A program made the translations under genes and the position numbers. Below, piece by piece: positions 8,301 to 48,220 of a stretch of DNA of 64,000 nucleotides. The notes below the pieces were generated by a model. That model ran no database searches, was not told the DNA's origin, and saw only the letters and a list, made by a program, of their open reading frames with translations. Source of the DNA: Christensenellales bacterium. GTDB lineage: Bacteria > Bacillota > Clostridia > Christensenellales > UBA1242. Each line of letters starts with the position of its first letter. Within the stretch, counting starts at the first letter, position 1. The DNA lies in contig JBJFDC010000003.1 of the NCBI GenBank assembly GCA_051889215.1, positions 7,456 to 71,455 of the forward strand, in the 5' to 3' direction.

Positions 8301-8526
8301 TGAGAACGAGTGAGGCAAATCTGTTTATGCCCATCACTTTTATGTTTAGAGTTGATGAAATGTTGAGCTTGTTGAACACAAGTTTTTCGGTTATAAGTGA
8401 GAATCTGTCGGGAACAATGATGATTTGATCTTCTTCATATCGTGAAATATTCGGAGCAATGTCCAAAACAACCTGCTCCGATGCACAAGTGATGTCAGTT
8501 CCCTTTGTCAAAATTAATTTGCTCAC
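5386..8526 (-). CDS. addB: helicase-nuclease AddB (inactive helicase fold, C-terminal Fe-S nuclease domain)
   Basis: 1046 aa, sits immediately 5' of addA. The C-terminus has the cysteine pattern (C...CxxC...C) and a DYK-type nuclease motif typical of AddB. The start is a GTG with no clear RBS, so the start is less certain. Confidence 0.85.
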   Translation of the reverse strand: MSKLILTKGTDITCASEQVVLDIAPNISRYEEDQIIIVPDRFSLITEKLVFNKLNISSTLNIKVMGINRFASLVLKEQNVLPKSLSSNSQLIALGKAVYEEKNNFKFFPKSNIDVSFLQQIKNTISQLKTSEISPYTLEECLQDDKIHDIHLIYKNYEEKQKHGIDGADFLNLFVQNLPSAQLDNARIYFAFFDSMTNQGLNIVRTLLKKAKSVEFALSYPQSNQKNKFVYDTQLYNNLKSIAKDQDVEIEEKFATSSNFVSNLISTNIYLSNPHKFEIKDFAHFWECSTNQAQIEAVAKEIKSHVVSGGRFCDCVVGISDLDGNYNCAKRIFDDYEIPCFFDTDKTLSQTKPVEFLNLIFQYIQENDTSILYDIFSNVYANLTNEECFEICRFIDRYRLIDDDLNLHKFQNQNDAKIYEKIKSILDSLAVKNVGSSDKLCGKDFVDFIRRIFDAFCVLETTQKIRDYFVKEQDVENQKIYENLNEKILDILKTFEQETKDENLSFSEFVVLLNNVFAGTKLGGVPLGVDQVFVGDVSKSFFESDKIFFLCGANQDKMPDFQKDVGLLSDKDIARHANKVKIDPTIRTINLRKRLKLCSVLSIPKQKLFVSWVSLSDDGKKLAESTFVLGLMKMFGESAQKIGFAGDVQSDDFAKEICSAKRAREQLVAYIQNPKFSCEQQFNSLFDVLKKNDPSIEKLVNNSQSANITPNLKKNDLFFANDKFSVSALETYAKCPFMFFLKYGLKLDENKPIDLDEATLGNIVHLCLEKYFIRPQSDVDCFVDEFFKQIAIDEKYAIFFSYKKFSSILNSLKRECKQTIRDILEEQENSKFKIEYVEKYVGGGKMQFDFGGRKIAFGGIVDRVDKFENKIVVVDYKTGKTEHNVQDIIFGNKIQIFVYLKALEQSEGVQAVGALYYPISAKRKKKNAKTFLGFFVDEEAENFDQNLKQNGCSKMLGVKLKKDGTYSARNKTMVTQKEFSNMMDMAKSVMEQNLKNICDGYICPSPLKTDKLPCVYCKFLGICKFDQNGGNKYRLSRKPTEKQENE

Positions 8527-8564
8527 ACAATCATTTTATCACACACGCGTTTTTTGACAAAACA

Positions 8565-9428
8565 TTATGCTTTTAATTTTTGTTTATTCTTTTTGGGAAT
8601 TGTGTTGGCAAATTTTTTCAATTCGTGCATTTTGTTTGATTCAACAAAATTTTCAACCTCTTTGCTGCGTTTTTCTTGCAATCTAATTTTTAGATTTTTG
8701 TTCTCGCTTTTTAGTTTTTCCAAACTTGATGAAAGTTCTTTTATTTGACTGTCTTTTGAAGACAGGGCGACATATGCTTTGGCGAGATTATCGCTCGCGC
8801 TTTTCATTTCCAATCGATTTTGCACCTCTGCTTGCTCACATGCAGCACGCTTGACAAGTCTGACGAGCCCCATAAACAACACTTCAATATCCTTGTCGGA
8901 AAGCGAACCTTTTTGTTTTGGCATGACCAAAATGTTGTTCATTTTTGGGGACGCGTTTAACGTGCTTGGAACAACAATCCCCTCTCGCTTTAATTCGTCA
9001 ACACATTCTGAAAATAGCCGCTGATTTCCCTTCAAAACATTGCGATATTTGTTTTGAAATCTAATCATTTTTCCAAGGTCATCGCCCGACAAAGTCAAAC
9101 ACGCTTTGCGCACACTCATTCCCTTTGCACATAGTCGCAAAATGTTTTTCACAACTTCTTTTTCTTCTTTTTGGTCAAAAGGTGTTTGCTTGATTTTTTC
9201 ATGTTTTGACAAATCAATTTTGAGTCTTTGACATTTGCTCTTGTTGTTTTGCAACTCTCCCAGTTCCAGGTAGTAATAATTTCTGACACTGTTTGGCTTT
9301 CTTTTTGTCAAGTCCGCATAATTTTTAAAAATGGACAAAAGCGAGAGATGTTTTTCTTTCCCCGCCTCAACAAAACAAAATAGTTTTTTTATTTCTTCAT
9401 CTTTCCATGAACAATAAATTGTTTTCAT
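8565..9428 (-). CDS. Myb/SANT-like (RsfA-family-like) DNA-binding protein with C-terminal coiled coil
   Basis: The N-terminal W..EE...L...V......F.......R...SVRNYY pattern resembles RsfA/Myb-like HTH domains. The C-terminus is a Lys/Glu coiled coil. Start moved to the ATG at 9428, which is preceded by GGAGG. Confidence 0.55.
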   Translation of the reverse strand: MKTIYCSWKDEEIKKLFCFVEAGKEKHLSLLSIFKNYADLTKRKPNSVRNYYYLELGELQNNKSKCQRLKIDLSKHEKIKQTPFDQKEEKEVVKNILRLCAKGMSVRKACLTLSGDDLGKMIRFQNKYRNVLKGNQRLFSECVDELKREGIVVPSTLNASPKMNNILVMPKQKGSLSDKDIEVLFMGLVRLVKRAACEQAEVQNRLEMKSASDNLAKAYVALSSKDSQIKELSSSLEKLKSENKNLKIRLQEKRSKEVENFVESNKMHELKKFANTIPKKNKQKLKA

Positions 9429-9517
9429 AAATCCTCCAACACCATTATTGACATTGTCTTGTGATTTATACATATTTATGACATCATAAAAAAACGCTTG
9501 GCATCATACTTTATGTT

Positions 9518-10486
9518 ATGGAGCGAACAAGGTTTAAGTTTTCTGCAAAAACACCTTGCCTTGTCTTTTGTGACAAGGTTTTTCTTGGTGAAATAGATAA
9601 AAACGTTTGTGCAAAACTTGAGATTTTGGAAGGACAAACAAAATATATTGAAGTTTTTCCAAAATCGACAAAAGATGTCACCTATTTTATTCCTTTTGCT
9701 TTTGAGTTGTCGTCCAACACAAAATTATCTTCAAACTATGTCATCTATGATTTGCTCGATGCAAATTATGAGATTGAAATAAAACCTCGCCTCGAATTGC
9801 ATATGCCAATGTCTTTTGACAATATTTTTGAAGAAGAAAAAAGCGGCACGAATATATGCGTCCTTTCTTCTTCTGTCACAAAAATCATTCTTCAAAACAA
9901 AAAGAACAAGGTTGAATTTTGCCCAAAATGCGTGTTGCGTGACATTGCGTGCAAATCATTTTCTTGGGATAACTCCGACTATTTTGTCCTCACTGCAAAA
10001 ACTCAAGAAAACTTGCAATATCTGTTTGTCGCAAATCTCAACAATATTGATTGCTGCATTCAAAAATTTTGCGACGACATAACTTTTGATTTGCCCAAAA
10101 TCTCCACCCTGAATTTTTGTCATGACTTCTATGAGCACGCGATTATAAGCAAATATGAATTAAATCCAAGCGGACTAAAAAAACTTGATTGTTATTCCAG
10201 CCGAAAAGAACAAACATCTTTTTTGACCCCAACCCGAAAAGACACCGCAAAAGTTTTTTTTGAATGTGTGAAGGTGCGAGACTATGAACTTGCTCGGTTT
10301 TTGATGACAAAACAACTCTCGGAACTTTTGAGTGACCAACACCTAAAACGTTTTTTCCCAAAATTCGACAAAATAAAACTCGCTCCCGAGCGAGATGTTG
10401 TTTTGCTTGTTGGCGAAGAGAAAACATATTTTCAACTATCATTCGTTGACGGAAAAATTGATAATATAGAAATATTTGATAGATAA
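9518..10486 (+). CDS. hypothetical protein (322 aa, Cys-rich, no recognised domain)
   Basis: Long ORF, divergent from the RsfA-like gene. I recognise no motif. Confidence 0.6.
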   Translation: MERTRFKFSAKTPCLVFCDKVFLGEIDKNVCAKLEILEGQTKYIEVFPKSTKDVTYFIPFAFELSSNTKLSSNYVIYDLLDANYEIEIKPRLELHMPMSFDNIFEEEKSGTNICVLSSSVTKIILQNKKNKVEFCPKCVLRDIACKSFSWDNSDYFVLTAKTQENLQYLFVANLNNIDCCIQKFCDDITFDLPKISTLNFCHDFYEHAIISKYELNPSGLKKLDCYSSRKEQTSFLTPTRKDTAKVFFECVKVRDYELARFLMTKQLSELLSDQHLKRFFPKFDKIKLAPERDVVLLVGEEKTYFQLSFVDGKIDNIEIFDR

Positions 10487-10531
10487 TTTGACATTATCAA
10501 AAAAACAAGAGATAATAATATAGAGGTTGTT

Positions 10532-10759
10532 ATGGAAGATAAAAAATTCACTTGTTGCGATTGTAAAAAAGAATTTGTTTGGACTGTTGAAAATCAAAAA
10601 TTTTTCAAAGACAACAAAATTGACAAAGAGCCCGTTCGCTGCCGCGAGTGTGCAATAATTTTGAGAGACAAGCGCAAACAAGAAGCAAAAAAAGAAAAAC
10701 AAAACAAAAATCAGGCCGAAGTCAAACCTGAAAAACAAACTGAAAAAAACAAAAAATAA
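10532..10759 (+). CDS. small zinc-ribbon protein with Lys-rich tail
   Basis: CxxC...CxxC with F.W..E.Q.F......+.P.RC.EC resembles the 'probable zinc-ribbon' family. Followed directly by a terminator. Confidence 0.65.
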   Translation: MEDKKFTCCDCKKEFVWTVENQKFFKDNKIDKEPVRCRECAIILRDKRKQEAKKEKQNKNQAEVKPEKQTEKNKK

Positions 10760-10781
10760 TGGTTCCGCCATTATTTTTTTA
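10755..10781. terminator. bidirectional rho-independent terminator
   Basis: AATAATGG-TTCCG-CCATTATT (8-bp stem), flanked by an A-run and a T-run. Lies between convergent genes. Confidence 0.6.
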
Positions 10782-10829
10782 TTTTTGATTGAGTATTTTG
10801 AGATTTTAAACAAAAGAAACGCCAACAAC

Positions 10830-11798
10830 TTAACTCAATGTAAATCCCTGTTCTTCATCTGAAAAATAGTCATCAGGATATAATTCGCTATTTTCTTCTT
10901 TTTCGCCAGACTCATTGTTTTGAATTCTGTTGAGAATATTGTTGAGATGTGTGAAGTCGCGCTGATTTTGATTTGAATATTCTTGCATCAAAGTTCCCTC
11001 ATCTCCATAAAGAGTGTTCGCAAGTTCAATTTCTGGAGTTTGACCAAGTTTGTCAATTTCACTTTGAAGGCCTTTAAAAGTTTTCATAAAAAGTTGACCT
11101 TCTTTTTGGAAAAACACTGGCATCATATAAGATTTTTCGCCATTCTTTTCAATAAAAGTTTGAACAGTGCCAACAAACACAATTCCCTCTTCCGAAAGAT
11201 TTTTCATGACATCTTCAAAAAATTCTGTATTGATTTCAATCGCTTGAATGCTTGAACCTTGGAGGTGTGCAACAAGTGAACTCACTCCGTCGCTATCCGA
11301 GCCCTCTTGTTCAATATCAATTTGTGCAAAATTATTGTTGTAAACAACACAAAACACTTTTCCGTTTTCTGGTTTTATCAAAATTTTGAGTTGAGTGTCT
11401 TTTGAAGAGAATGCATCGCTTCTCATGTTTGTTTCAAACACACCCAAAACATCAAAATCGCCTTCAATCTCAAAACCCAACTTCTGCTCAATTTGCGGTC
11501 TAATTGTGTCTTTCAAAAAATTATATGCATAATTTTTGTTTTGTTCGTCAATTTGGTCTTGTTGCTTATTTTCGTCATCAACCTCGCCATTGTTTGGAAA
11601 AAGATCGCCTTTTTGTGGCAATTTGATTTCTGTTGAGTCTGCACGATTGACATAATTGTATAATTGCGTCGCCGCTTCTGGCAAAACATAGAGAAGAACA
11701 ACCGCCGACATAAGAGAATACGCCACTTTTTGAGTGGTGGTCAGTTTGCATTTTTTTGGCTTTCTTGAAAGCATTTTGTTGTAATATTTTTTTGCCAT
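10830..11798 (-). CDS. hypothetical membrane-anchored protein
   Basis: One N-terminal hydrophobic segment, then an acidic soluble domain. The track start (11843) is TTG, so I prefer the ATG at 11798. Start uncertain. Confidence 0.55.
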   Translation of the reverse strand: MAKKYYNKMLSRKPKKCKLTTTQKVAYSLMSAVVLLYVLPEAATQLYNYVNRADSTEIKLPQKGDLFPNNGEVDDENKQQDQIDEQNKNYAYNFLKDTIRPQIEQKLGFEIEGDFDVLGVFETNMRSDAFSSKDTQLKILIKPENGKVFCVVYNNNFAQIDIEQEGSDSDGVSSLVAHLQGSSIQAIEINTEFFEDVMKNLSEEGIVFVGTVQTFIEKNGEKSYMMPVFFQKEGQLFMKTFKGLQSEIDKLGQTPEIELANTLYGDEGTLMQEYSNQNQRDFTHLNNILNRIQNNESGEKEENSELYPDDYFSDEEQGFTLS

Positions 11799-11867
11799 AA
11801 TTTCTACGATACTAATTTTAACATAAATTGAATTTGTTTGCAATACAAAAAATAACCGCCCAAGCAG

Positions 11868-14800
11868 TTATTTTTTTGTTTGTTTTCTCTTTTTGTTGAA
11901 ACTTATAAACAAAGCGCATAGTGCAACGCCCAAAATCACTCCAACACAAACCGCAACAGCAATATCAATCCAGTTTTCGTTGTCGCACACAACGATAAAT
12001 TCAGAAAAGGTTGAAGTTGAAACAAGCACGTTATCGCCTTGAATTTTATATGCAAGTTCAACATAGTCGCCTGTTGCATTTTTCCCAAAAACATGAATGT
12101 TGTTGAGATTGTTCAAATTTTTCAAGTTGATTTTCATGTCCAATGCTTTGTCCAAAACAAGTGTGTTGCCACTCGCATCAAACAGTCCAACACTCATGCT
12201 TTGAACAATTTTTTTGCCAGCATATTCGTTGCCTATTTGCAAATCTTTGACAGAAAGCACTGTTCCATATTTCATTGCGGTTGAACTGTATGTTGATACT
12301 TCAACATTTTGATTTTCTAGTGTCGCATATGTTATGTCGGCATATAGTCCGGTTGGCATGATAAGATTATAATTTTTTGCTTTCGAGCCAACAAGAGAAA
12401 ATCCTTGAAGACTAACTGCGATATCATTTCCGGGTTCAATAGATGCGAAGTTGGCGCAAGCATTTTTGTCAAAATCAAGCATGATTTCATTATCGACAAG
12501 TCCAGAAACGATTGGATTTTTTATTTTGCAAGTTGTTGTGCCATCATATGTTTTGTCCAACACTTCAACATTGAGTTTGACGTCTTTTGCGAGAATGACC
12601 AAAATTGAATTTCGCGTGTGAACCTCATAGTTTTGGTCCATGCTGACAACATTGAGGACATATTCGCCAACATCTTCACTCGCGTCTCTTTGGACCTCCC
12701 ATTCAAGTTGTTCACCCAAAACCAACTCTCCTTGCAAGATTTGCAAATTGAAACAAGGGTCTGGATTGGAATAAATCTTTTGATTTGCACCGAGCGAAAC
12801 GACAAGAGCTCTTGGCAAAATGTCGTAGTATGCTTGAATGTATCTGACCTTGTAGTTTCTTCCAAGATTGATGTTGCACCTTATTGGATATCGACCCGCA
12901 TCTTCTCCTTCTGTCTTATATAGTCCGCCCGTCAAAGTGTCGCCCGCCAAAATTTCTCCGTCAAGGACATAATCAAATTCGGTTGAAATTTCTTCTCCAT
13001 AAATTGAAGAAACATTTTGAGTTGAGACAACAACTTCGCGTTGATTGATTGAAAGATTATTTCCAACATAACTGATTTCATAATTTGGATTATTTAGACT
13101 TGAAAGAAGCGGATATTTCCCAACATTTTCATAAATTTTTACGCCGACATTTTCTCTATATATGCCACCTGAAAGATCATTTGGATTAACCAGTGTTCCG
13201 CTCGTTATTTCATAAACAAATTCTGGATCGCTTTCGCCATAAATTTTTGATGCAGGAATTGCAGTGACTTCAATTTGTCTTGGCAAGATTGTCAACAACC
13301 CACAGGTGTATTTGAATTTGTAGTTTGCTGGAGTTGAAAGAGTTCCAACCTCAATCACATATTCTCCAACATCTTCGCCATATCTTCTTTTCGCTTTGCC
13401 AGAAAGGACAACATTTTTGTCCCCCGACAAAATTTCATAGTCAAAAACCGGATCGCTGTCACCATAATATTTTGTGACGTCCAAAATTTTGATGTTGAGT
13501 TCTTGAGCATAAATACAAAGTTTTCCGGGAACAAAGGTCAAAATGTAATTCCCTCCAGCCGTGAGCGTGCCTTGACTGAACATATATTCGCCAACATCTT
13601 CGCCCGCCTCGCGCGAGATTTCACCACAAAGAATGTCGCCAAGTTCTTCATCGAATTGAAGAGAACCATAATAGAGGACAAATTCAACAACTGGATCATT
13701 TTCTGAAAAATATTTGAATGTGTCTTCGGCTTTAACAGAAATCTCACAAGGAATAATTTCCAATTTTCCAGAAACAAAATTTATATTATAGTGAGGGTCG
13801 TCAAGCGAATCATATGTTATTTTGTATGTGCCGACATTTTCTCCCTTTTCTCTTTTGAGTTTAATCGTTGAAGAAACTCCTGGAACAATATTTGTTTGAC
13901 TGAATGAAAATATCGGGTCGTTTTCACCATAAATTTTTGAATGAGAATCTGCTTCTATTTCAATCTCGCGTTTTGTTATTGTTAGCACTCCGCTTGAAAT
14001 GAATTCAATTTCATAATTGTCACCAAAAGAGATTGAGCCGCGCGTATAGCAATATCTCCCAATTTCTTCACCCATTTCTCGTGTTGCAGAGCCAATCAAA
14101 AGTCCTTCAAATGTTTGTCCAAAAACAAATTCGTTCTCGTCGCAAACATATTCAAAATCTGGGTCAGCATCTCCAAACTGTTTTTGAGCTGAACAAATTG
14201 AAACTTGAATTTTTTTGGCTTTTATTTCAAGCGAAACGTCGCTTGCAAGACTCAATTCATAATTTGTGTTTTGCAATCTCATTGATTGCGTGATTTCATA
14301 GTTATATTTTCCAACATCTTCGCCCTCAAATCTTTGCAGCTGTCCATAAATTTGCTCATTTTCAATCACACCTTCAAACTGCAAATTAAGTTGAGGATCG
14401 TCATCTCCATATGTTTTTTGAAGCGAATCTGCCGTTATTTTTACTTTTTTTGCAAAAATTGATGCCATAATCAAATTTTCGTCATATTTCAGAACGTAAT
14501 TTTGTTTGTTGGAACCTTCAATTTCAATTTTGTTTATTATGATGTTTTTGTTATCCCCAACATTGCTGTCCTCAAATTTTAAATCCGTCTGAAGAACAAT
14601 GCCATCTTTTTCAAGTGTGTTTTTGAGAGTGAACGAATATTCGACGTCTGTCGTTCCGTCATAAGTTTTGTCATTTGCAACGAACTCAACATACGCATTT
14701 CTTGCGATGATTTCAAAATTTGCGGGGATAAATTCAATGTTGTAGTTCTCATTATGCAAAGTGCCTTGCTCAATTTGATATAAACCAACATTTTCGCCAA

Positions 14801-17075
14801 CTTCTCTTTTGATGTTTCCCAAAAGTTCGTCGCCTTCAACAAGTCCAAAAACCTCATAATCAAGCACAGGATCGCCATCGCCATATGATTTTGAAGCGGG
14901 CTTTGCTTCAATTTTTATATCTTTTGGAATTATATGAACAAAAGCCGCAGTCAAAACAATGTCATAGTTTGGATTTTTCAAACTGCCGATTGAAATGATG
15001 TAGGTTCCAACTTGATTTGATGAAATTCCCAGTTTTCCAACAAGTGTGTCAGAAGCAATGAGTCCTGTTGCCTCATAATCAATTTGAATTTCCTCTCCAT
15101 AGCAAAAAGTTTGGTCGTGGGTCACAACATTTGCAGTTTTTGGCATGATTGTGCCATAAAGAACAGAAGTCGTCAACCCCGAATAATAGTTTTTTGCGTC
15201 TTCACCCAAAATTTTTACATTTGTGATTTGGACTTCTTTGTTCACTCCAACATTTGGGTCTTTGAAATTTGCTTCAAATGTCACATTGACATCGTCCCCC
15301 AAAACAATGTTTGATTGTGTTGCAAAAATTTGAGCATTTTTTGTTTTGTCATATGTCTTTGCAACAACGCCGACATCGCTAAATTTTATTTCGCGTTTTT
15401 GAATAACAAATGTTGCGCCGACAAAATTAATTTTGTAATTTGGATTTTGTGAAACCAAATTTCCTTCAAGAATGCCATATTCTCCAGCGTTTTCACCTTG
15501 TTCTCTCGACAAAGTTCCAGAAACATTTTCTCCCTCAACAAGCCCACTGGCCAAAAAAGTCAGTTTTGGATCACTGTCTCCATAAATCTTTGAAAGAGCG
15601 TTCGCTTTTATCTCGAGTGGTCTTTGAGTGATTGTTGCAGTTGTTGTGGGAATATAGTTTGTGAGTTTATATAAATTCGCGTCGCTTCCCGAAAGAGTTG
15701 GGATTGAAGAGAACTCAATTGTTTTTTGTTCACCAATGCTGCTCGTCACAAAATTTGCAACAAGATTTTCCACTTTGACGTCGTGAGAATTTTCGACGCC
15801 ATCAAAAACAACGTTCTCAATTTCGGCCTTTGTTGTTGCATCATAGAGTTTTGATTTGACGATGATTTCTTGAATTTGAATTGTTTTTGTGAATTTTGCC
15901 TTGATTTGTTGATTGTTCTCAACTTTAAAAGTGTAGATTTTGTCACTTGAAACAATTTCACCATTGTTTTCCCAGCCAACAAATTCAAATCCGTCATTCT
16001 CCGAAAATGAAAGGGTTGCATAGTCTCCAACAAAATATTTTCCCTCTCCAAAAAACTTTGCAGGACTATCAAAATCTTTTTCGATGACAATATTTGTTTG
16101 TTCGACATCGAGGGCAAAAGTGATTGAATCAGAATATAGATATTCGCCAGACAAAGAGCTTTTTCGACATTTTGCGCGAACAACAATTTTCGCACCTTTT
16201 GGCGCATCGCCATTCACATATAGATAACTATCAACAACTTGGGCATAACTTTGTCCCTCAACTATTTCAAAAGTTATTTTGTGAATTTTTTTGTAATACT
16301 GAAAATATTGAGAGTTTGAACTTTGCCCAACAATCAAGTTTGTTGCCGAGAGTTTGAGAACTTGTCCAATTTTGAGCGATTGACTTTCTGTTTGAATCAC
16401 GCACTCGTTCAAGTTTGTGGCAAAAAACACGGTTGGTTCAAATATACAAAACTTTGCAGCGTTAATTCTGTTTGTCTCTTCGCGATTTTCAAAATAATAA
16501 ATTATTTTTTCTGTGTCAGCAGGAAGAGAAACAAGTTCAGTTTCAACCCAATCGGGTTCATAAACCGAGGAATTTGAAGAAACTTTTTCTGATGAAAGCG
16601 TCAAACTTTTGTATGTTTTGCCACCGGCAACGACCTCAATGGTGACGTCGACCTTGCTTCGTGCCTCATTGTTTAGAGCCAAAAGTCCGCAACTTGCCTT
16701 GAAAGACATTTGCCCTGCCGAGATGATTTTTTGCATTTCTGAACTTGGATAAATTTCGCAAACCCCAGAACTTTTTGCCTTGGTCAAAGATGTGTTTTTT
16801 CCTGTTATGTAATTATATTTGTTAACAGTTTCGCCATTTTTGTTTATGTAATTCTTGTCAGATGCAATCGCTTGTGCGTTTTGCATTGTCGACTCGCCTT
16901 TTGAGTTCGTGAAATAACTTGCGGGATTGTTTCCCGAATATCCAACAAGAACAAATTGCGCTCCATCTGTTCCGGCAATATCTGCCTGAACTTCATCAAT
17001 TTTTGGCAATAAAAGAGTTATGCCACATGTGAGCATTGTCATGAATATAATGAACATGCAAAACAGTTTTTTCAT
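11868..17075 (-). CDS. giant surface protein with about a dozen MBG/YDG-type repeats and a C-terminal membrane anchor
   Basis: Signal-like N-terminus MKKLFCMFIIFMTMLTCG. Repeats of about 80 aa (K.YGD.DP...Y ... G.L.RE.GE.VG.Y.I..G.L....NY.I.F..A.F.I..R) alternate with YDGT modules. The C-terminus is a TM helix plus a KKRKQTKK tail, with no LPXTG motif. Start at 17075 has a GGAGAG RBS, 7 nt after the upstream stop. Confidence 0.85.
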   Translation of the reverse strand: MKKLFCMFIIFMTMLTCGITLLLPKIDEVQADIAGTDGAQFVLVGYSGNNPASYFTNSKGESTMQNAQAIASDKNYINKNGETVNKYNYITGKNTSLTKAKSSGVCEIYPSSEMQKIISAGQMSFKASCGLLALNNEARSKVDVTIEVVAGGKTYKSLTLSSEKVSSNSSVYEPDWVETELVSLPADTEKIIYYFENREETNRINAAKFCIFEPTVFFATNLNECVIQTESQSLKIGQVLKLSATNLIVGQSSNSQYFQYYKKIHKITFEIVEGQSYAQVVDSYLYVNGDAPKGAKIVVRAKCRKSSLSGEYLYSDSITFALDVEQTNIVIEKDFDSPAKFFGEGKYFVGDYATLSFSENDGFEFVGWENNGEIVSSDKIYTFKVENNQQIKAKFTKTIQIQEIIVKSKLYDATTKAEIENVVFDGVENSHDVKVENLVANFVTSSIGEQKTIEFSSIPTLSGSDANLYKLTNYIPTTTATITQRPLEIKANALSKIYGDSDPKLTFLASGLVEGENVSGTLSREQGENAGEYGILEGNLVSQNPNYKINFVGATFVIQKREIKFSDVGVVAKTYDKTKNAQIFATQSNIVLGDDVNVTFEANFKDPNVGVNKEVQITNVKILGEDAKNYYSGLTTSVLYGTIMPKTANVVTHDQTFCYGEEIQIDYEATGLIASDTLVGKLGISSNQVGTYIISIGSLKNPNYDIVLTAAFVHIIPKDIKIEAKPASKSYGDGDPVLDYEVFGLVEGDELLGNIKREVGENVGLYQIEQGTLHNENYNIEFIPANFEIIARNAYVEFVANDKTYDGTTDVEYSFTLKNTLEKDGIVLQTDLKFEDSNVGDNKNIIINKIEIEGSNKQNYVLKYDENLIMASIFAKKVKITADSLQKTYGDDDPQLNLQFEGVIENEQIYGQLQRFEGEDVGKYNYEITQSMRLQNTNYELSLASDVSLEIKAKKIQVSICSAQKQFGDADPDFEYVCDENEFVFGQTFEGLLIGSATREMGEEIGRYCYTRGSISFGDNYEIEFISSGVLTITKREIEIEADSHSKIYGENDPIFSFSQTNIVPGVSSTIKLKREKGENVGTYKITYDSLDDPHYNINFVSGKLEIIPCEISVKAEDTFKYFSENDPVVEFVLYYGSLQFDEELGDILCGEISREAGEDVGEYMFSQGTLTAGGNYILTFVPGKLCIYAQELNIKILDVTKYYGDSDPVFDYEILSGDKNVVLSGKAKRRYGEDVGEYVIEVGTLSTPANYKFKYTCGLLTILPRQIEVTAIPASKIYGESDPEFVYEITSGTLVNPNDLSGGIYRENVGVKIYENVGKYPLLSSLNNPNYEISYVGNNLSINQREVVVSTQNVSSIYGEEISTEFDYVLDGEILAGDTLTGGLYKTEGEDAGRYPIRCNINLGRNYKVRYIQAYYDILPRALVVSLGANQKIYSNPDPCFNLQILQGELVLGEQLEWEVQRDASEDVGEYVLNVVSMDQNYEVHTRNSILVILAKDVKLNVEVLDKTYDGTTTCKIKNPIVSGLVDNEIMLDFDKNACANFASIEPGNDIAVSLQGFSLVGSKAKNYNLIMPTGLYADITYATLENQNVEVSTYSSTAMKYGTVLSVKDLQIGNEYAGKKIVQSMSVGLFDASGNTLVLDKALDMKINLKNLNNLNNIHVFGKNATGDYVELAYKIQGDNVLVSTSTFSEFIVVCDNENWIDIAVAVCVGVILGVALCALFISFNKKRKQTKK

Positions 17076-17082
17076 AACTCTC

Positions 17083-20000
17083 CTATCTTGGTTGTCTGAT
17101 TTTTTGATAAGCTTGAGGATCGTCCTCAATTTTTGAGTCTGGCAAAATTTCAGTTTCGCCAGAAGGGAGTGAATATCCCGTCATTTCAAATGCAACTGGC
17201 ACTCCGTAAATCTTGACCGCCCCTTCAATCTTGTAGGTCACATATTGATATGTCGAACTCATTTTCGTGATGTCAACATCAAGCACGCTTTCGTAAGTCA
17301 AAATTCCGTCATAACCCGCTTTGAAAGCAGTGATTCCTGCCATAAAGTAATATTTCCCGTTGTAATATTTTGTGAGGTGAGTTTGTTTCTTGATTATTTC
17401 GCGAAGTTGGGCTGTTGATTCGCCAAGTTCAGCGGCAATTGAATTGCCATTGATTTCATCAACATCAATCCAGTTCATGATTTTTATGTCACCTTCAAGT
17501 TTGAGTTTGCTGTGATTGCTTCCAACCTCACCTTCTTGTTTTGGGTCGAACAAAATTGAGCTGAGATAAGATGATTTGAAAATGCAATCCCGAACAGTGA
17601 CATCGGACGAAACACCGTCATCATTAACTGAAATTGTGAGACCTCCAGAATATGAGTTTCTGATTATGCACCCAGCAAATGTCACTTGTACGCCATATGC
17701 TCTTGCTGCAAATATCGCATTTTCCATAATGCTGTTTTTCACCAAAACATTTTTCACCATTTCCGCGCCCGTTGGGGTGTAAACAAGGAATGCACAACCT
17801 TTTCCTTCGAGCGAAGACAGCGAGGCATTTTCGTCAAAACTTGTTCCTCTGATCTGCAAGTTGTCAATAACAACATTCGAGCCCATGACGACAAATCTGT
17901 TATAAGCCCTTTCAAGACCATTTTCGTCATAGTCTGGGAAAGTCAAATCAAGAAGATGTCCATTTCCATAGAATGATCTTGTGGTCGTGATTCCTTCTCT
18001 AACATTATAAACTATGTCGTCTTGAATTACAATAGGCGTGTTGACCGCTTTCATTGCATATTGCAGTTGTTCTTTGCTATAGACATTGACTCCGTGAACA
18101 ATGATAAAGGTATAACTATCTTTAAGGAACAATTCCTCGTTGTCAGAAAGTTGGTCTTGTGGTTGAACGGTCACCGTGAGTTCGCCCGCTCCACCAACAA
18201 ATGTCAAAAGACCATTTTGATCAATTGTTGCAATGCTCGTGTTGCTTGAAGTCCAAATCAACTTTGCTTCATCTGAAGAAGGTGTGATTGATTTTATTCT
18301 CATCTGATAGGTGTTTGCAATTTGAAGTTGTCCATCTTGAGTTTTTACAAAGCCATTTCCAAAAACTCTATATCCTCCAATTCCGCAATCGTCATCAACA
18401 GCATCAAGTTCGAGTTCAATGTCACTGATAATAATTTTTATTCTGATTGTGATTTCGCAATAAATTTCAGGATTTTCAACAACATAAGCGCGAACAACAA
18501 CGCTTCCCGGTTTGCTTCCCGCAAACAATTTGCCAGAAGAATTTACTGTTGCAAGCGATTCGTCTGAAACGGTGTAGGCAACAGAAAATTCTTGTGCTCC
18601 ATATGGCAAATAGTCAATTCCCAGTTGCATTGAATCTCTTGCAAAAATTGAATCTGGAACATTTTTGAACATAATGAGCGAAACTTCATTTGAATATTTG
18701 ATTTTTATCGTTCGATAAATTTCGTGATTGCTTTTGAGTTTGATGACGATGTTTGCTGTTCCATAATTTGAGAAAGTGACATGTCCATATTCATCAACTT
18801 GAGCAAGTTCAATATTCTCTGAAGAGAACTCAACATCTTTATTTGTCGCATCAAGCGGAAGAACAGAATAATTGATGCTGCATTCTGGTGAGGAAATATA
18901 TAGAGATGTGTCGGTCACTATTTGTGATGCAGGTTGCTCAACAATAATTTTGAACGCGCTTGTTGTGAATGAACAAACATTGAGTTTGAATGTCGCTTCT
19001 CCACCTGCACTTGCTCGCAATATCCCGTTTTCAAATTCCAAAACAGAAAGCGCGTCATAGTTTTTGTTCTCAACTTTTTCAATCATGACGATTTGTTGAA
19101 CCTTAACATCTTTTGGAATGAAACTAACAAGTTTAAATTCAAAAATTTCACCTGCAGTCATTTTGAGAGTTGAGCCAACAAATCCAGTTGTGTCAAATTT
19201 TGCATCGATAATTTTTCCGTCTGTGAAATAGAATGATATTGTTTTGGACGAGACGTTGTCAAAACTGTCATAAGCCCTAAAAGTTATATCAACCTTTCCG
19301 CCCTTCAAGAAATTTATTGTGCCATTTTGAATGCTTGCAATTTCTTGATTGCTGCTTTCATATTCAAATTTTTTTATGTGAGCATCACTTGGATATGGAG
19401 TGATTTCAAATCCGAGATTTCCAGTTCCAACAACTTTTGTGCCATACATTTCATCAAGTTGGCGCGACAAGTTTACGTCAATATTTTGAAGCAACTGAAC
19501 AACCTCAATGTCAACAAATTGTTCAACCGCCACACCATTCGTGTTCATAAAGGACACTCTCAATTTTGCTTTTCCGCCATGGTTTGCCTTTATTCTTCCA
19601 TTTTCTTCAATAATCACAACTTGTTGTTCATCATTTTGCGGATTGTTTTCAACAACCTCATAAACAAGATTTGATTTGTCAAATTCAAAATCACTTGGAT
19701 AATATTTTGAAACTGATAATGAAATATAAGAATTTTTCAAAATCGTTATGTTTTGAGTGTTGAGTTCAAAATCTGAAAGCGCCAAATTTGTGCTGGTCAC
19801 GAAAATGCTTTTTGAAACCTCGTCATTTTGCGCATAAATTTTTACCTCAACTCGCCCCGCTTTGGAAAAGTTAATAACATTTCCTTCAAGCGTCGCAATG
19901 TCGGTTGGAACAATTTCAAAACGAAGCGTCTTGTTTGTTGCGTCTTCTGGCAAGACTTTTGCTTGAATTGCAAACTCTGTTTTTGATGTCAAAACATCAT

Positions 20001-46640: not shown

Positions 46641-47162
46641 ATGAATTTTGGTGCAATAAAAAACAACGATATTGCAAATGGACTGGGCATTCGCATCAGT
46701 CTTTTTGTCAGCGGTTGCACCCATCATTGCAAAGGTTGTTTCAATGCAGAAACATGGAATTTTGATTATGGCAAACCCTTCACAAAAGATGAAGAAAACC
46801 AAATTATTTCACTTCTAAAAAAACCTCACATAAAAGGTTTGACACTCCTGGGTGGCGAGCCAATGGAACCACAAAATCAAGCCGAAGTCGTCAAACTTTT
46901 AAGACGCGTAAAATCAGAACTTCCGCAAAAAGATGTTTGGTGTTATTCTGGATACACTTTGGAAGAATTGCAAGACAAAAATCATCGAACTCACACACCT
47001 GTCACTGACGAAATTCTCGGCATGCTCGATGTTTTGGTCGATGGAGAATTTGTCGCAGAAAAAAAGAACCTCAAACTCAAGTTTCGAGGTTCTGAAAATC
47101 AGCGCATAATCGACATGAAACAAACTCAAAAAGACAATAAAATCGTGTTGCTCGAACTTTAA
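46641..47162 (+). CDS. nrdG: anaerobic RNR activating protein (radical SAM)
   Basis: The CTHHCKGCFN radical-SAM cluster motif. Sits immediately downstream of nrdD. Confidence 0.9.
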   Translation: MNFGAIKNNDIANGLGIRISLFVSGCTHHCKGCFNAETWNFDYGKPFTKDEENQIISLLKKPHIKGLTLLGGEPMEPQNQAEVVKLLRRVKSELPQKDVWCYSGYTLEELQDKNHRTHTPVTDEILGMLDVLVDGEFVAEKKNLKLKFRGSENQRIIDMKQTQKDNKIVLLEL

Positions 47163-47264
47163 ATGATTTGTTTGAACAATCGCCGCCATTTATGCACCAT
47201 TGCAAACGCCGATCCTTTTTTGCAAATATACATATAACAAAAACAATATTTTTTTGTTTTTTTA

Positions 47265-47293
47265 TTGACACAACAATTTTATTTTGTTATTAT
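47265..47293 (+). promoter_or_regulatory. promoter TTGACA-N17-TATTAT upstream of the tRNA-like array
   Basis: Perfect -35 (47265-47270), 17-nt spacer, TATTAT at 47288-47293. No coding gene follows. Confidence 0.55.
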
Positions 47294-47330
47294 AACAAAG
47301 CATTTCAAAATGCAAACATAAAAAAACATC

Positions 47331-47520
47331 AACAACTTAATAATGGAATGGGAGCACCGCTCTCGCGCAAGCCCGTCGTGCTCGATGCCGCAAAGCAAGT
47401 TTGCTCATTGTGCACCACCCTGTCGCCGAGCGAAGCGAACGCCATTCACACGCAAACTTCCCCGCCGCGTGAATATAAGGTGGGGGTCGGAGGGAACCAC
47501 CGACCAAAAAATTAGTTCTC
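47331..47520 (+). other. tRNA-Ile-derived unit A: D arm replaced by a 61-nt GC-rich segment, 52-nt insert in the anticodon loop, altered T arm
   Basis: Shares the leader TCAACAACTTAATAA plus TGGAATG (47344-47350), GCACCACCCTG (47412-47422) and ATAAGGTGGGGGTCGG (47475-47490) with the real tRNA. The intervening segments are foreign and GC-rich. Confidence 0.7.
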
Positions 47521-47640
47521 AACTTAATAATGGAATGTAGCTCAGCAGGTTAGAGCACCACCCTGGGCGAAGCGTTCGTAGCGTAAGCGGAGAACATAAG
47601 GTGGGCGACCCCACCGGAACCCAAAACTTTGGTGTTCAAC
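47521..47640 (+). repeat. tRNA-Ile-derived unit B1 (120 bp): exact tRNA 5' half, 30-nt anticodon-loop insert, non-tRNA 3' part
   Basis: 47531-47565 is identical to tRNA positions 1-35. The insert is 47566-47595, and ATAAGGTGG resumes at 47596. Then come the hairpins GGTGGGCGACCCCACC and GAACCCAAAACTTTGGTGTTC. Confidence 0.85.
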
Positions 47641-47760
47641 AACTTAATAATGGAATGTAGCTCAGCAGGTTAGAGCACCACCCTGGGCGAAGCGTTCGTA
47701 GCGTAAGCGGAGAACATAAGGTGGGCGACCCCACCGGAACCCAAAACTTTGGTGTTCAAC
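47641..47760 (+). repeat. tRNA-Ile-derived unit B2, identical to B1
   Basis: 120/120 identity by direct comparison of the two 120-nt blocks. Confidence 0.85.
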
Positions 47761-47770
47761 AACTTAATAA

Positions 47771-47847
47771 TGGAATGTAGCTCAGCAGGTTAGAGCACCA
47801 CCCTGATAAGGTGGGGGTCGGTGGTTCGAGTCCACTCATTCCAACCA
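47771..47847 (+). tRNA. tRNA-Ile (anticodon GAT)
   Basis: Hand fold:
- acceptor TGGAATG / CATTCCA
- D stem GCTC / GAGC
- anticodon stem CCACC / GGTGG, loop CTGATAA
- variable region GGGTC
- T stem GGTGG / CCACT, loop TTCGAGT
- discriminator A, encoded CCA
It has an unusual U1:A72 first pair. Confidence 0.9.
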
Positions 47848-47852
47848 AAAGC

Positions 47853-47886
47853 AAGCACTTAACAAAGTTAAGTGCTTTTCTTTTTT
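47853..47886 (+). terminator. rho-independent terminator after tRNA-Ile
   Basis: AAGCACTTAAC-AAA-GTTAAGTGCTT (11-bp stem), followed by TTCTTTTTT. Confidence 0.8.
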
Positions 47887-48031
47887 GTGGATAAATTGAC
47901 TTGCAAATTTAGACACTAAAAAAAGAAAAAGCATTTGCATTGAAAATGCGAATGCGAGCTTTTGAGAAAAAACAACTGGACGAGAACCATATTTAGTATT
48001 ATCCCCAAAAACCTATGTCGCACAAGCGAAC

Positions 48032-48105
48032 ATAAGGTGGGGGTCGGTGTCCTCTCCGCTTTGCTCCGAGTCGCTTTCGCTGCGCGAGTCCACTCATTCC
48101 AATCA
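48032..48105 (+). pseudogene. stand-alone tRNA-Ile 3' half (from the anticodon loop ATAA to an ATCA end) with a 37-nt GC-rich insert in the T loop
   Basis: ATAAGGTGGGGGTCGGTG (48032-48049), then the insert (48050-48086), then AGTCCACTCATTCCAATCA (48087-48105). Apart from the insert it matches the real tRNA at all but one position. Confidence 0.75.
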
Positions 48106-48111
48106 AAAACT

Positions 48112-48137
48112 AATCGCTCAAAACGAGTGATTTTTTT
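48112..48137 (+). terminator. rho-independent terminator after the tRNA 3'-half relic
   Basis: AATCGCTC-AAAAC-GAGTGATT (one G.U pair), running into a T7 tract. Confidence 0.55.
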
Positions 48138-48220
48138 ATTATATCCCCCACCTTATTATAATTAAAATTATTCCGTTTAATCGAGTTTTAGACAGTTAAA
48201 AAGGTGGTGGAATAAGTGAC

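What the first reader, a model, noticed from the sequence alone, without database searches (positions are those of the whole stretch)
47331..47847. Promoter-driven tandem array of tRNA-Ile look-alikes with GC-rich loop insertions, ending in the one intact tRNA-Ile(GAU)
After nrdG there is a near-consensus promoter (TTGACA-17-TATTAT, 47265-47293). It is followed by four head-to-tail units. Each begins with the same leader plus acceptor 5' strand: (T)CAAC(AA)CTTAATAA-TGGAATG.

- Unit 4 (47771-47847) folds as a normal tRNA-Ile(GAU).
- Units 2 and 3 (47521-47640 and 47641-47760) are 120/120 identical. They copy the tRNA exactly through the D arm and the 5' anticodon stem up to CTG. A 30-nt insert (GGCGAAGCGTTCGTAGCGTAAGCGGAGAAC) then sits inside the anticodon loop. 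The sequence resumes with ATAAGGTGG. Two unrelated hairpins then replace the T arm and the acceptor 3' strand (GGTGGGCGACCCCACC and GAACCCAAAACTTTGGTGTTC).
- Unit 1 (47331-47520) keeps TGGAATG, GCACCACCCTG and ATAAGGTGGGGGTCGG. It has 61 nt in place of the 17-nt D arm and a 52-nt insert in the anticodon loop.

Only one terminator follows (47853-47886), so all four units should be one transcript.

In the B units, GGTGGG can pair either with the upstream CCACCC (a tRNA-like anticodon stem) or with the downstream CCCACC, so the sequence allows two alternative structures.

I know of no described RNA class, leader or mobile-element scar with this architecture. Candidate explanations:
- a tRNA-scaffolded structured ncRNA or leader
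- decoy or processing-competitor RNAs
- scars of repeated site-specific recombination in the anticodon loop
Basis: partly seen in the sequence, partly recalled or inferred. Interest (0 to 1): 0.85.

Follow-up and report, generated by a model that had tools for sequence, protein, structure and literature searches.

The report
Fossil integration scars at tRNA-Ile
The row of tRNA-Ile look-alikes is real, but it is most likely a pile of leftover gene fragments from mobile elements that repeatedly inserted into the anticodon loop of this tRNA gene and brought their own replacement tRNA, not a new kind of RNA.

Summary
A strong promoter is followed by a decayed unit, two identical 120-nt units, one intact tRNA-Ile(GAU) and a terminator. 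Outside the given coordinates lies a fifth piece: the tRNA's 3' half (48032-48105) with its own terminator.

The same architecture, with varying unit numbers, occurs in at least 9 related gut-Clostridia loci, so it is not an assembly artefact.

Sister loci with other alleles of this tRNA show how such arrays form. There, 9-10-kb integrative mobilizable elements (tyrosine integrase plus MobL relaxase) sit between the 5' partial unit(s) and a displaced 3' fragment that starts at ATAAGG. The common core is only 8-11 bp (CCTGATAAG). The host tRNA is split. The element carries its own tRNA-Ile about 60 nt inside its left end. Two tandem elements go with two partial units, and acceptor alleles of 5' and 3' fragments match.

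In the window the element bodies are gone and only the scars remain.

I found no support for a structured or decoy RNA. There is no covariation, fold z-scores are ordinary, there is no Rfam match, and the spacer evolves faster than neighbouring synonymous sites.

Unexplained: the GC-rich inserts sit exactly between G34 and A35, and the T-loop insert is an inverted copy of the 30-nt insert.

This is a known kind (tDNA fragments; tRNA-dependent lysogeny). Interest is modest.

The parts
47265..47293 (+). Promoter of the original host tRNA-Ile gene (TTGACA-17-TGtTATTAT). It now drives the whole array.
   Evidence: 11/12 match with TG. Conserved in L005, L006, L108, L112, L115, L116, L117.
47331..47519 (+). 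Unit 1, the oldest and most decayed displaced 5' fragment. It comprises the leader plus TGGAATG (47344-47350), a decayed D region (47351-47411), GCACCACCCTG (47412-47422), a 52-nt insert (47423-47474), the core copy ATAAGGTGGGGGTCGG (47475-47490) and a 29-nt tail (47491-47519).
   Evidence: The 5' part varies among relatives (L108 intact, L112 D-arm lost, L006 and L005 further decayed). A homologue of the 52-nt insert lies downstream of the tRNA in L108. Fold z-score 0.08.
47520..47639 (+). B unit 1. It comprises the leader plus the tRNA 5' half up to G34 (46 nt), a 30-nt insert (47566-47595), ATAAGGTGGG, and a 44-nt spacer.
47640..47759 (+). B unit 2, 120/120 identical to B unit 1. It is a recent tandem duplication or unequal crossover through the 46-nt repeat.
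47760..47847 (+). Leader (11 nt) plus the one intact tRNA-Ile(GAU), 47771-47847, with CCA encoded.
   Evidence: Identical tRNA in L005, L006, L108, L112, L115, L116.
47853..47886 (+). Terminator T2 of the intact tRNA. It is homologous to the terminator after the intact tRNA of L116, with compensatory stem changes.
   Evidence: 0/500 shuffles.
47887..48031 (+). Remnant of an element's interior and right arm. It contains GGACGAGAACCA and the hairpin CCCCAAAAACCTAT-loop-(ATAAGGTGGGG), the 'P module', which abuts the core.
   Evidence: The same module abuts ATAAGGTGG in L005, L115, L116, L118. Fold z-score -3.0 including the terminator.
48032..48105 (+). Displaced 3' fragment of the original host tRNA. 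It comprises ATAAGGTGGGGGTCGGTG, a 35-nt T-loop insert (48050-48084) and CGAGTCCACTCATTCCAATCA.
   Evidence: 90-91% identical units in L005 and L116. A 20-nt direct repeat, 19/20 identical, with 47471-47490. The T-loop insert is an inverted copy of the 30-nt insert.
48112..48139 (+). Terminator T1, the original host terminator. It is orthologous to the terminator that directly follows the intact tRNA in L006 and L112.
   Evidence: 0/500 shuffles.
48145..48156 (-). Inverted copy of the core 12-mer ATAAGGTGGGGG. Its role is not explained.
   Evidence: A similar CTCCCCCACCTTT follows the host terminator in L127.

Best explanation
The array is a fossil record of serial site-specific integrations into the anticodon loop of a chromosomal tRNA-Ile(GAU) gene.

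Mechanism, shown in sister loci:
1. A 9-10-kb integrative mobilizable element (tyrosine integrase, 88-aa protein, MobL relaxase) recombines with the tRNA gene through a short common core, CCTGATAAG(G).
2. The host gene is split. Its promoter, leader, acceptor 5' strand, D arm and anticodon-stem 5' strand stay on the left. Its 3' part, from ATAAGG onward with the host terminator, is displaced to the far end of the element.
3. The tRNA is not rebuilt at the junction. Instead the element carries a complete tRNA-Ile about 60 nt inside its left end. This copy has no good promoter of its own and is read from the host promoter through the orphaned 5' fragment.
4. Each new element that lands in the current intact copy adds one more 5' partial unit upstream and one more 3' fragment downstream.

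Inferred for the window:
- The element bodies have since been deleted.
- What is left is the host promoter, an old decayed 5' fragment (unit 1), a younger 5' fragment with element-derived spacer (the B unit, later duplicated by unequal crossover through its 46-nt repeat), the currently functional tRNA with terminator T2, about 180 bp of element remnant ending in the element's right arm, and the original 3' fragment with the original terminator T1.
- The partial units are transcribed only as passive 5' leader and are cut off by RNase P.
- The GC-rich inserts at G34|A35 are stubs of further recombination events whose exact origin is not resolved.
For: Shown:
1. L106 and L117 carry the same element in different hosts. 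Homology starts at tRNA position 8 inside the partial unit and runs through the spacer (85%), the intact tRNA (96%), the terminator, the arm repeats and the integrase (93-97%). To the left, promoters and acceptor alleles are unrelated. L117's left side is the window-type promoter plus TGGAATG.
2. Four loci found through integrase homologues (L122, L125, L127, L128) have the same order: 1-2 partial 5' units, a 55-66-nt spacer, the intact tRNA, the integrase-bearing element, then ..CCTG|ATAAGGTGGGGGTCGG.. 3' fragment plus terminator. In the three with MobL (L122, L127, L128) core-to-core spacing is 9-10 kb. L129 shows it cut at the contig end; L130 shows only the tRNA, element and 3' fragment; L126 ends before any 3' fragment.
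3. The identity shared by the left and right junctions is 8-11 bp.
4. The acceptor 3' strand of the displaced fragment matches the nearest partial unit and not the intact tRNA. Examples are L122 TGGATTG/CAATCCA, L127 AGGACTG/CAGTCCT and L128 AGAGATG/CATCTCT.
5. Second integrase: L125, L128, L129 each carry a second integrase gene in tandem. L125 and L128 have two partial units.
6. ARAGORN calls one tRNA-Ile per array. In L122 a 12/12 promoter lies upstream of the partial unit and only a 9/12 match lies in the spacer.

Window-specific evidence:
7. A 20-nt direct repeat, 19/20 identical (GAAyATAAGGTGGGGGTCGG), brackets 47491-48027.
8. T1, after the 3' fragment, is orthologous to the terminator after the intact tRNA of L006. 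T2 is orthologous to that of L116.
9. The window leader CAACAACTTAATAA resembles the end of the L127 element spacer, GAAAAACTTAATAT.
10. L116, which has the window's array type, retains a 27-aa remnant, 96% identical, of this integrase. L104 has a chimeric tRNA.
11. Unit number and composition differ among close relatives.

Precedent: PMC10865867 (cores of 8-17 bp, phage tRNA complements the loss). Islander lists 159 islands with 5' tDNA fragments, 2083 anticodon-centred sites and 125 tandem arrays.
Against: - No integrase or other element gene lies in the window. Neighbours are nrdDG, merR and leuS, and no member of the integrase family is found in 64 kb. For the window the mechanism therefore rests on analogy plus scars.
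- No intact element carrying the B-type spacer or the P module was found. Viral scans gave 0 hits or chance hits. Phage and plasmid BLAST hit only the tRNA.
- The B, unit 1, L098, L101 and L090 inserts lie exactly between G34 and A35 without duplication of the core. A junction with an 8-11-bp common core does not produce this.
- Every one of 9 loci with the TGGAATG allele and a B unit keeps the B spacer directly upstream of the tRNA. This could mean constraint rather than shared ancestry.
- Window versus L005/L006 spacer identity (81-87%) exceeds nrdD third-position identity (64-65%).
Confidence: 0.7

Rival explanations
1. The partial units are a functional, co-transcribed structured leader or decoy RNA. 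It could be an anticodon-arm mimic that titrates a tRNA-Ile-binding factor, controls maturation of the downstream tRNA through the alternative GGTGGG pairings, or pairs with the 3' fragment RNA through the 30-nt insert and the T-loop insert.
For: - The units must be transcribed from the only good promoter.
- The B spacer is present in all 9 loci of this allele group.
- Its identity between the window and relatives (81-87%) is above nrdD third positions (64-65%).
- The inserts are about 60-66% G+C by count from the sequence, against roughly 31-43% (mostly ~36%) for the window.
- The T-loop insert is complementary to the 30-nt insert over about 25 nt.
- Some related modules end in hairpins of different sequence, for example AACTTTC/GAAAGTT versus AACCTTC/GAAGGTT.
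Against: - There are no compensatory changes in 19 proposed pairs. Three helices never vary and the fourth is broken in most sequences.
- Fold z-scores are -1.86, -1.44 and 0.08.
- There is no Rfam hit.
- The minimum-free-energy fold does not use the tRNA-like stem.
- The spacer diverges faster (86%) than lysR third positions (92%) between L005 and L006.
- Unit number and the 5' part vary freely among near relatives.
- The polymorphic position in the 30-nt insert and T-loop insert pairing is swapped rather than co-varying between the window and L005.
- Sister arrays are fully explained by element integration.
Confidence: 0.12
2. The GC-rich inserts are a separate phenomenon superimposed on the scars. 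They would be a family of small elements, either a miniature transposon such as an IS200/IS605-like hairpin-ended element or an intron-like sequence, that insert precisely between G34 and A35 of tRNA-Ile genes, and in inverted orientation into the T loop.
For: - The boundary CTG|...|ATAAGG is exact, with no target or core duplication, in at least 3-4 unrelated insert sequences.
- Most inserts end in a hairpin flush with ATAAGG.
- The T-loop insert is an inverted copy of the 30-nt insert (0/2000, 10/2000 and 1/2000 shuffles).
Against: - The inserts are only 24-52 nt.
- No transposase or full-length parent was found.
- No copies exist elsewhere in the window.
- No unit with an insert is otherwise a complete tRNA, so splicing would yield nothing useful.
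- There is no group I or group II signal in Rfam.
- The 5' 'exon' ends in G rather than U.
Confidence: 0.1
3. Plain tandem duplication of the tRNA gene followed by decay of all but one copy, with no mobile element involved.
For: - The two B units are 120/120 identical and share a 46-nt repeat with the tRNA, as expected from unequal crossover.
- No element is present in the window.
Against: - Decay does not leave the 5' 46 nt perfect and replace the 3' part at one exact nucleotide.
- It does not explain the separate 3' fragment with the ancestral terminator.
- It does not explain the differing acceptor alleles of partial and intact units in sister arrays.
- It does not explain the elements found between the fragments.
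Confidence: 0.05
4. Assembly artefact that inflates a single tRNA gene into an array.
For: Short-read Logan contigs of the same organism break inside the repeat. The two B units are identical, so their number is unverified.
Against: - Unit 1 through the start of B unit 1 (to 47549), and 47815 onward, are confirmed at 100% identity by independent contigs.
- Homologous arrays with non-identical units assemble in many unrelated samples.
Confidence: 0.02

Closest known systems
Displaced tRNA-gene (tDNA) fragments and tandem island arrays at tRNA genes (Reiter 1989; Williams 2002; Islander database, PMC4383910)
   Same: - An intact tRNA gene with cognate fragments in the same orientation.
- Fragment boundaries in the anticodon loop.
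- Tyrosine integrase elements between the gene and its fragment in relatives.
- Tandem accretion.
   Different: - Here it is 5' fragments that accumulate upstream. Only 159 of 3919 Islander islands have a 5' fragment.
- The tRNA is not rebuilt at the junction.
- In the window the elements themselves are gone and only a few hundred bp of scar remain.
- The fragments form the 5' leader of the working tRNA.
tRNA-dependent lysogeny of actinobacteriophages (Guerrero-Bustamante and Hatfull 2024, PMC10865867)
   Same: - A tyrosine integrase.
- attB inside a tRNA gene.
- A very short common core (8-17 bp there, 8-11 bp here).
- The host tRNA is destroyed.
[quoted passage not shown]
   Different: - The elements here are small integrative mobilizable elements with a MobL relaxase in gut Clostridia, not phages of Actinobacteria.
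- The replacement tRNA sits about 60 nt from the crossover and appears to use the host promoter.
- Serial events leave ordered arrays.
- Dependence on the element's tRNA is not tested.
Split and multiple-intron tRNA genes of Archaea (Nanoarchaeum, Caldivirga), recalled from general knowledge
   Same: tRNA 5' and 3' halves are encoded apart. GC-rich sequence interrupts the anticodon loop and the T loop.
   Different: - Removing the inserts does not give a complete tRNA.
- The insert position is 34/35, not 37/38.
- No complementary leader pairing the halves is maintained.
- The halves here have a demonstrated DNA-recombination origin in sister loci.
Repetitive antitoxin RNAs of type III toxin-antitoxin systems (ToxI-like arrays), recalled from general knowledge
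   Same: A promoter-driven head-to-tail array of short non-coding units ending in a terminator.
   Different: No toxin gene follows. The units are tRNA-gene fragments of unequal length. There is no evidence of processing.

Membership tests
tDNA fragment / integrative-island scar (Islander criteria) | An intact tRNA gene plus a cognate fragment of it on the same replicon in the same orientation | tested here: met
   Three 5' fragments (47331-47759) and one 3' fragment (48032-48105) lie on the tRNA's strand.
tDNA fragment / integrative-island scar (Islander criteria) | Fragment boundary at a known crossover sublocation (anticodon loop, T loop or T/acceptor junction) | tested here: met
   All boundaries lie at CTG|ATAAGG, within the anticodon loop. 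The second insert lies in the T loop.
tDNA fragment / integrative-island scar (Islander criteria) | An integrase gene between the tRNA gene and its fragment | tested here: not met
   None in the window. The feature is met in sister loci L106, L122, L125, L127, L128, L129, and as a 27-aa remnant in L116. The window therefore holds scars, not an island.
tDNA fragment / integrative-island scar (Islander criteria) | A direct repeat (common core) flanking the inserted DNA | tested here: met
   GAAyATAAGGTGGGGGTCGG occurs at 47471-47490 and 48028-48047, 19/20 identical. The 46-nt repeat flanks each B unit.
tRNA-dependent integration (PMC10865867) | A common core too short to rebuild the tRNA at the junction | tested here: met
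   In sister loci the core is 8-11 bp (CCTGATAAGGT, CCTGATAAG, CTGATAAG). The left junction continues into non-tRNA spacer.
tRNA-dependent integration (PMC10865867) | [quoted passage not shown] | tested here: met
   An intact tRNA-Ile(GAU) lies inside the shared, mobile DNA of L106 and L117. It lies next to the integrase in L122-L129.
tRNA-dependent integration (PMC10865867) | The element's tRNA is required for survival of the integrant | not testable with these tools
   This needs genetics. It is also unknown whether the host has other tRNA-Ile(GAU) genes, for example in rRNA operons.
Intron-containing or split tRNA | Removing the insert leaves a complete, foldable tRNA | tested here: not met
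   Units with the G34|A35 insert lack the T arm and the acceptor 3' strand. ARAGORN calls only one tRNA per array.
Intron-containing or split tRNA | A recognisable self-splicing intron | tested here: not met
   No group I or group II match in Rfam at E<=5. The inserts are 24-52 nt.
Conserved structured non-coding RNA | Base pairs maintained by compensatory change; folding more stable than shuffled sequence | tested here: not met
   0 of 19 pairs have a change on both sides. z-scores are -1.86, -1.44 and 0.08. The depth is small, 9 distinct and closely related sequences, so helices 1-3 are uninformative rather than refuted.

The most novel reading that the evidence does not exclude
The GC-rich inserts are not debris. 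They would be a previously undescribed class of very small site-specific insertions, or hairpin-ended mini-elements or stubs made by an unusual one-strand recombination. These target the phosphodiester between G34 and A35 of tRNA-Ile genes and, inverted, the T loop. Alternatively, the resulting leader RNAs, including the roughly 25-nt complementarity between the 30-nt insert and the T-loop insert, have been co-opted to control the replacement tRNA.
Probability: 0.1. Interest if true: 0.7.

Novelty: new member of a known kind. Interest (0 to 1): 0.3.

Why it matters
- The locus shows that the working tRNA-Ile gene of these gut Clostridia has been replaced, perhaps several times, by copies brought in by mobile elements. 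Each replacement leaves an ordered scar, with 5' fragments upstream and 3' fragments downstream.
- It extends the 'destroy the host tRNA and bring your own' integration strategy. That strategy was described in 2024 for actinobacteriophages. Here it appears in small mobilizable elements of gut Firmicutes, and the integrase family behind it has hundreds of members (481 hits at E<=1e-30).
- Such arrays break short-read assemblies, produce pseudo-tRNA calls, and mimic exotic RNA genes. Recognising them avoids false discoveries.
- For the array in the window itself, the finding is ordinary.

Tried and rejected
- Rfam, at gathering thresholds on the window and at E<=5 on the window and L005 arrays: only the tRNA matched.
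- BLAST of the array against phage and plasmid collections: only tRNA genes matched.
- Viral-contig scans:
  - The B junction and the T-loop insert gave 0 hits.
  - The P-module junction GCGAACATAAGGTGG gave 40 hits, all unrelated coding sequence.
  - The tRNA core gave 3 contigs, which I did not pursue.
- Split or intron-containing tRNA idea: no unit becomes a complete tRNA after removing its insert.
- T-box-like or attenuator idea: there is no terminator between the units and the tRNA and no T-box match in Rfam; by eye I saw no Ile codon (ATC) in the 30-nt insert.
- Integron-like cassette idea, prompted by the inverted CCTTAT/ATAAGG arms: no integron integrase is present, and module boundaries between L005 and L115 are not clean.
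- First idea about the L106-type element: that it joins at the very 3' end of the tRNA. I rejected it after the L106/L117 alignment and the right-end junctions showed the crossover in the anticodon loop.
- Similarity of the 30-nt insert to the P-module loop or to the 52-nt insert: not significant (269/2000 and 169/2000 shuffles).
- L006 versus L116 as an empty/occupied site pair: the right junction in L116 is decayed, so the comparison is not clean.
- Conservation as an argument for function: it fell away once lysR third positions (92%) were found to be more conserved than the spacer (86%).
Full report
**1. The observation**

- ARAGORN and Rfam find one tRNA in the 64-kb window, tRNA-Ile(GAU) at 47771-47847.
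- Tandem Repeats Finder reports a 120-nt unit, 2.4 copies, 100% identical, at 47520-47805.
- The leader plus acceptor strand CTTAATAATGGAATG occurs four times (0.2 expected). ATAAGGTGGG occurs six times exactly, all between 47475 and 48156.
- A near-consensus extended -10 promoter lies at 47265-47293 and a terminator at 47853-47877.

Three things need correcting or adding.
- The '61-nt insert in the D arm' of unit 1 is a decayed 5' part. Relatives show a graded series: intact in L108, D arm lost in L112, further eroded in L006 and L005.
- The second hairpin of the B unit is not kept in relatives.
At 48032-48105 lies the 3' half of the same tRNA, from A35 to the end. It has a 35-nt insert in the T loop and its own terminator at 48112-48132. 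An inverted copy of the 12-mer ATAAGGTGGGGG follows at 48145-48156.

**2. Context and reality of the array**

The window is a chromosome of an uncultured gut Clostridia bacterium with about 36% G+C. The array lies between nrdDG and a merR-type regulator. A hydrogenase operon and leuS are nearby. No recombinase is in the neighbourhood, and no member of the relevant integrase family is anywhere in the window.

Two short-read Logan assemblies of the same organism are 100% identical to the window. Their contigs end at 47549 and at 47815/47854, that is, inside the repeats. The exact number of identical B units therefore cannot be checked.

The architecture itself is real. Loci L005, L006, L091, L104, L108, L112, L115 and L116 all carry the same promoter, the same tRNA, and one to two and a half B-type units with small differences. 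These loci come from two species representatives and from several unrelated metagenomes.

**3. How such arrays arise: evidence from sister loci**

A metagenome scan with the tRNA's 5' half also retrieved arrays built on other acceptor-stem alleles of this tRNA-Ile (L094, L106, L113, L117). In these, one or two units consist of the acceptor 5' strand, the D arm and the anticodon arm up to ATAAGG. A spacer of about 55 nt follows, and then the intact tRNA.

In L106 a 447-aa tyrosine integrase and a MobL relaxase follow the intact tRNA. L117 has the same integrase at 96% identity.

Aligning L106 with L117 shows where the shared DNA begins. Homology starts at tRNA position 8 inside the partial unit. 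It continues through the spacer (85%), the intact tRNA (96%), the terminator, the TTGACATCAAA arm repeats and the integrase (93-97%). To the left there is no homology. L117's left side is the window-type promoter with the TGGAATG allele. L106's left side lies in a different tRNA cluster with the AGAGATG allele. The spacer and the intact tRNA therefore travel with the element.

I then took integrase homologues and fetched their contigs. In tRNA orientation four of the loci (L122, L125, L127, L128) show the same order. L129 shows it cut at the contig end, L130 shows only the tRNA, element and 3' fragment, and L126 ends before any 3' fragment:
- one or two partial 5' units;
- a spacer of 55-66 nt;
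- the intact tRNA-Ile, the only one ARAGORN calls;
- its terminator and the arm repeats;
- the integrase, an 88-aa protein, MobL and cargo;
- downstream (9-10 kb from core to core in L122, L127 and L128; about 5 kb in L125) a junction of the form ..AACTTTCCTG|ATAAGGTGGGGGTCGGTGGTTCGAGTCC.., that is, the 3' part of a tRNA-Ile with CCA and a terminator.

Three further points fix the mechanism.
- The sequence shared by the left and right junctions is only 8-11 bp: CCTGATAAGGT, CCTGATAAG or CTGATAAG.
- The acceptor 3' strand of the displaced fragment pairs with the acceptor 5' strand of the nearest partial unit and not with the intact tRNA. Examples are L122 TGGATTG/CAATCCA, L127 AGGACTG/CAGTCCT and L128 AGAGATG/CATCTCT.
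- L125, L128 and L129 each carry a second integrase gene in tandem. L125 and L128 show two partial units.
- In L122 a perfect promoter lies upstream of the partial unit and only a 9/12 match lies in the spacer.

So these elements integrate in the anticodon loop through a short core and split the host gene. They supply their own tRNA-Ile, which is read from the host promoter through the orphaned 5' fragment. Repeated integration into the current intact copy stacks 5' fragments upstream and 3' fragments downstream.

**4. Applying this to the window**

The element bodies are absent, so this part is inference supported by scars.
- A 20-nt direct repeat, 19/20 identical (GAAyATAAGGTGGGGGTCGG), at 47471-47490 and 48028-48047 brackets the B units, the intact tRNA, terminator T2 and about 180 bp of AT-rich remnant.
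- T1, behind the 3' fragment, is the orthologue of the terminator that directly follows the intact tRNA in the simpler relatives L006 and L112. T2, behind the window's intact tRNA, is the orthologue of L116's and has compensatory stem changes. Both comparisons gave 0/500 shuffles. The 3' fragment is therefore the displaced end of the original gene.
- The sequence abutting the 3' fragment (GGACGAGAACCA ... CCCC..CCTAT-loop-ATAAGG) recurs next to ATAAGGTGG in L005, L115, L116 and L118. This is what one expects of an element's right arm.
- The leader before each window unit (CAACAACTTAATAA) resembles the end of the L127 element's spacer, GAAAAACTTAATAT.
- L116, which has the window's type of array, still carries a 27-aa remnant, 96% identical, of the integrase behind its 3'-fragment unit. 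L104 has a chimeric tRNA with mismatched acceptor strands.
- The two identical B units are most simply a recent unequal crossover through the 46-nt repeat. In L108 the two units differ and correspond to alleles found singly in L116 and L006.

**5. Tests of the RNA hypotheses**

- On an alignment of 9 distinct B units, none of 19 proposed base pairs shows a change on both sides. The three short helices never vary, which is uninformative. The fourth is unpaired in 40% of cells.
- Fold z-scores are -1.86 for the B unit, -1.44 for its core and 0.08 for the 3' part of unit 1. The minimum-free-energy fold of the B unit does not use the tRNA-like stem.
- No Rfam family matches, even at E<=5.
- The apparent conservation is not evidence of constraint. 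Between L005 and L006 the adjacent lysR gene is 92% identical at third codon positions, while the B spacer is 86% identical.
- Window versus relatives is less clear. Spacer identity is 81-87% against 64-65% for nrdD third positions. However, the lysR-tRNA region evidently has a more recent common history than nrdD.
- No insert-bearing unit is otherwise a complete tRNA, so an intron or split-tRNA reading has nothing to splice into.

**6. What remains unexplained**

- The inserts of the B unit, of unit 1 and of analogous units in L098, L101 and L090 lie exactly between G34 and A35 without any duplication of the core. Most end in a hairpin flush with ATAAGG. A normal junction with an 8-11-bp core does not give this.
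- Recombination with a partner site of heterologous overlap could give it if the integrase cuts the top strand at G34|A35 and the intermediate is resolved by replication. This is speculation.
- The T-loop insert of the 3' fragment is an inverted copy of the 30-nt insert in three genomes (0/2000, 10/2000 and 1/2000 shuffles). The polymorphic position is swapped rather than co-varying between the window and L005.
- The inverted 12-mer behind T1 has a counterpart behind the host terminator of L127.

**7. Comparison with what is known**

Displaced tRNA-gene fragments, anticodon-centred crossover sites and tandem island arrays are standard. Islander lists 2083 anticodon-centred sites, 159 islands with 5' fragments and 125 tandem arrays (PMC4383910).

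Integration through a core too short to rebuild the tRNA, with the element supplying a cognate tRNA, was described in 2024 as tRNA-dependent lysogeny of actinobacteriophages, with cores of 8-17 bp (PMC10865867). My literature searches did not find this described for mobilizable elements of Clostridia, nor arrays of 5' fragments read as the leader of the replacement tRNA. The search is limited to open-access text.

**8. Verdict**

The best explanation is a stack of integration scars at a hot-spot tRNA-Ile gene (confidence about 0.7). The functional-RNA readings are not supported.

The array in the window is a new member of a known kind, and its interest is modest (0.3). The more interesting by-products are the family of elements that replace the host tRNA-Ile in sister loci and the unexplained, exactly placed G34|A35 inserts.

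Noticed in passing
L106:1866-5454; L117; L122-L130 (for example L122, reverse complement, about 8357-18396): A family of 9-10-kb integrative mobilizable elements (tyrosine integrase, 88-aa protein, MobL relaxase, variable cargo). They integrate in the anticodon loop of tRNA-Ile(GAU) through an 8-11-bp core and carry their own tRNA-Ile about 60 nt inside the left end. L125, L128 and L129 each carry a second integrase gene in tandem. The integrase has 481 homologues at E<=1e-30.
   Followed up: partly
L104 (reverse complement) about 5190-5284: A chimeric tRNA-Ile. The 5' acceptor strand is TGGAATG but the 3' end is ..CACTTGCTTCTACCA, so only 5 of 7 acceptor pairs form. This looks like a junction made by an element that rebuilt the tRNA with a foreign 3' half.
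   Followed up: no
L088 (oriented as) 2480-2715: The tRNA upstream of tRNA-Ile ends ..CGAATCCGTGTATCTCCACCA. A GC-rich stretch of about 130 nt follows, and then a second copy of CGAATCCGTGTATCTCCACCA. This looks like the same kind of tiny GC-rich remnant flanked by a tRNA 3' repeat at a different tRNA.
   Followed up: no
L105 615-840; L109 160-290: Modules downstream of tRNA-Ile begin with an inverted copy of the tRNA's T-loop and acceptor 3' end (AGATGAGAGAACTCGAAC). They end with a direct copy (..CCACTCATCTCTACCA) plus a terminator. This suggests an inversion or an oppositely oriented integration.
   Followed up: no
L005 8216-9100 versus L006 8213-9100; nrdD in the same loci: The lysR gene next to the array is 92% identical at third codon positions between L005 and L006, and 100% between L006 and L116. 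nrdD, 2.7 kb away, is only 69% identical. The lysR-tRNA segment seems to have been exchanged recently between lineages.
   Followed up: partly
window 48050-48084 versus 47566-47595: The 35-nt T-loop insert of the displaced 3' fragment is an inverted copy (about 80% identical) of the 30-nt anticodon-loop insert of the B unit. The same holds in L005 and L116.
   Followed up: partly
window 47162-47331 versus L005/L006 6522-9100: In the window the array follows nrdG directly. In L005 and L006 three genes lie between nrdG and the array: a 153-aa protein, a ThyX-like protein and lysR. The downstream neighbours also differ: merR in the window, a histidine-kinase-like gene in L005, and a HAD hydrolase in L006.
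   Followed up: no
L108 6819-11035: Directly after an anticodon-arm-like junction (..CCTCCACCCTGA|AAGATTAC) come FtsK/SpoIIIE-like and DnaB-C-like genes. Further on lies a WYL-domain gene. This is probably a different integrated element at the same hot spot.
   Followed up: no
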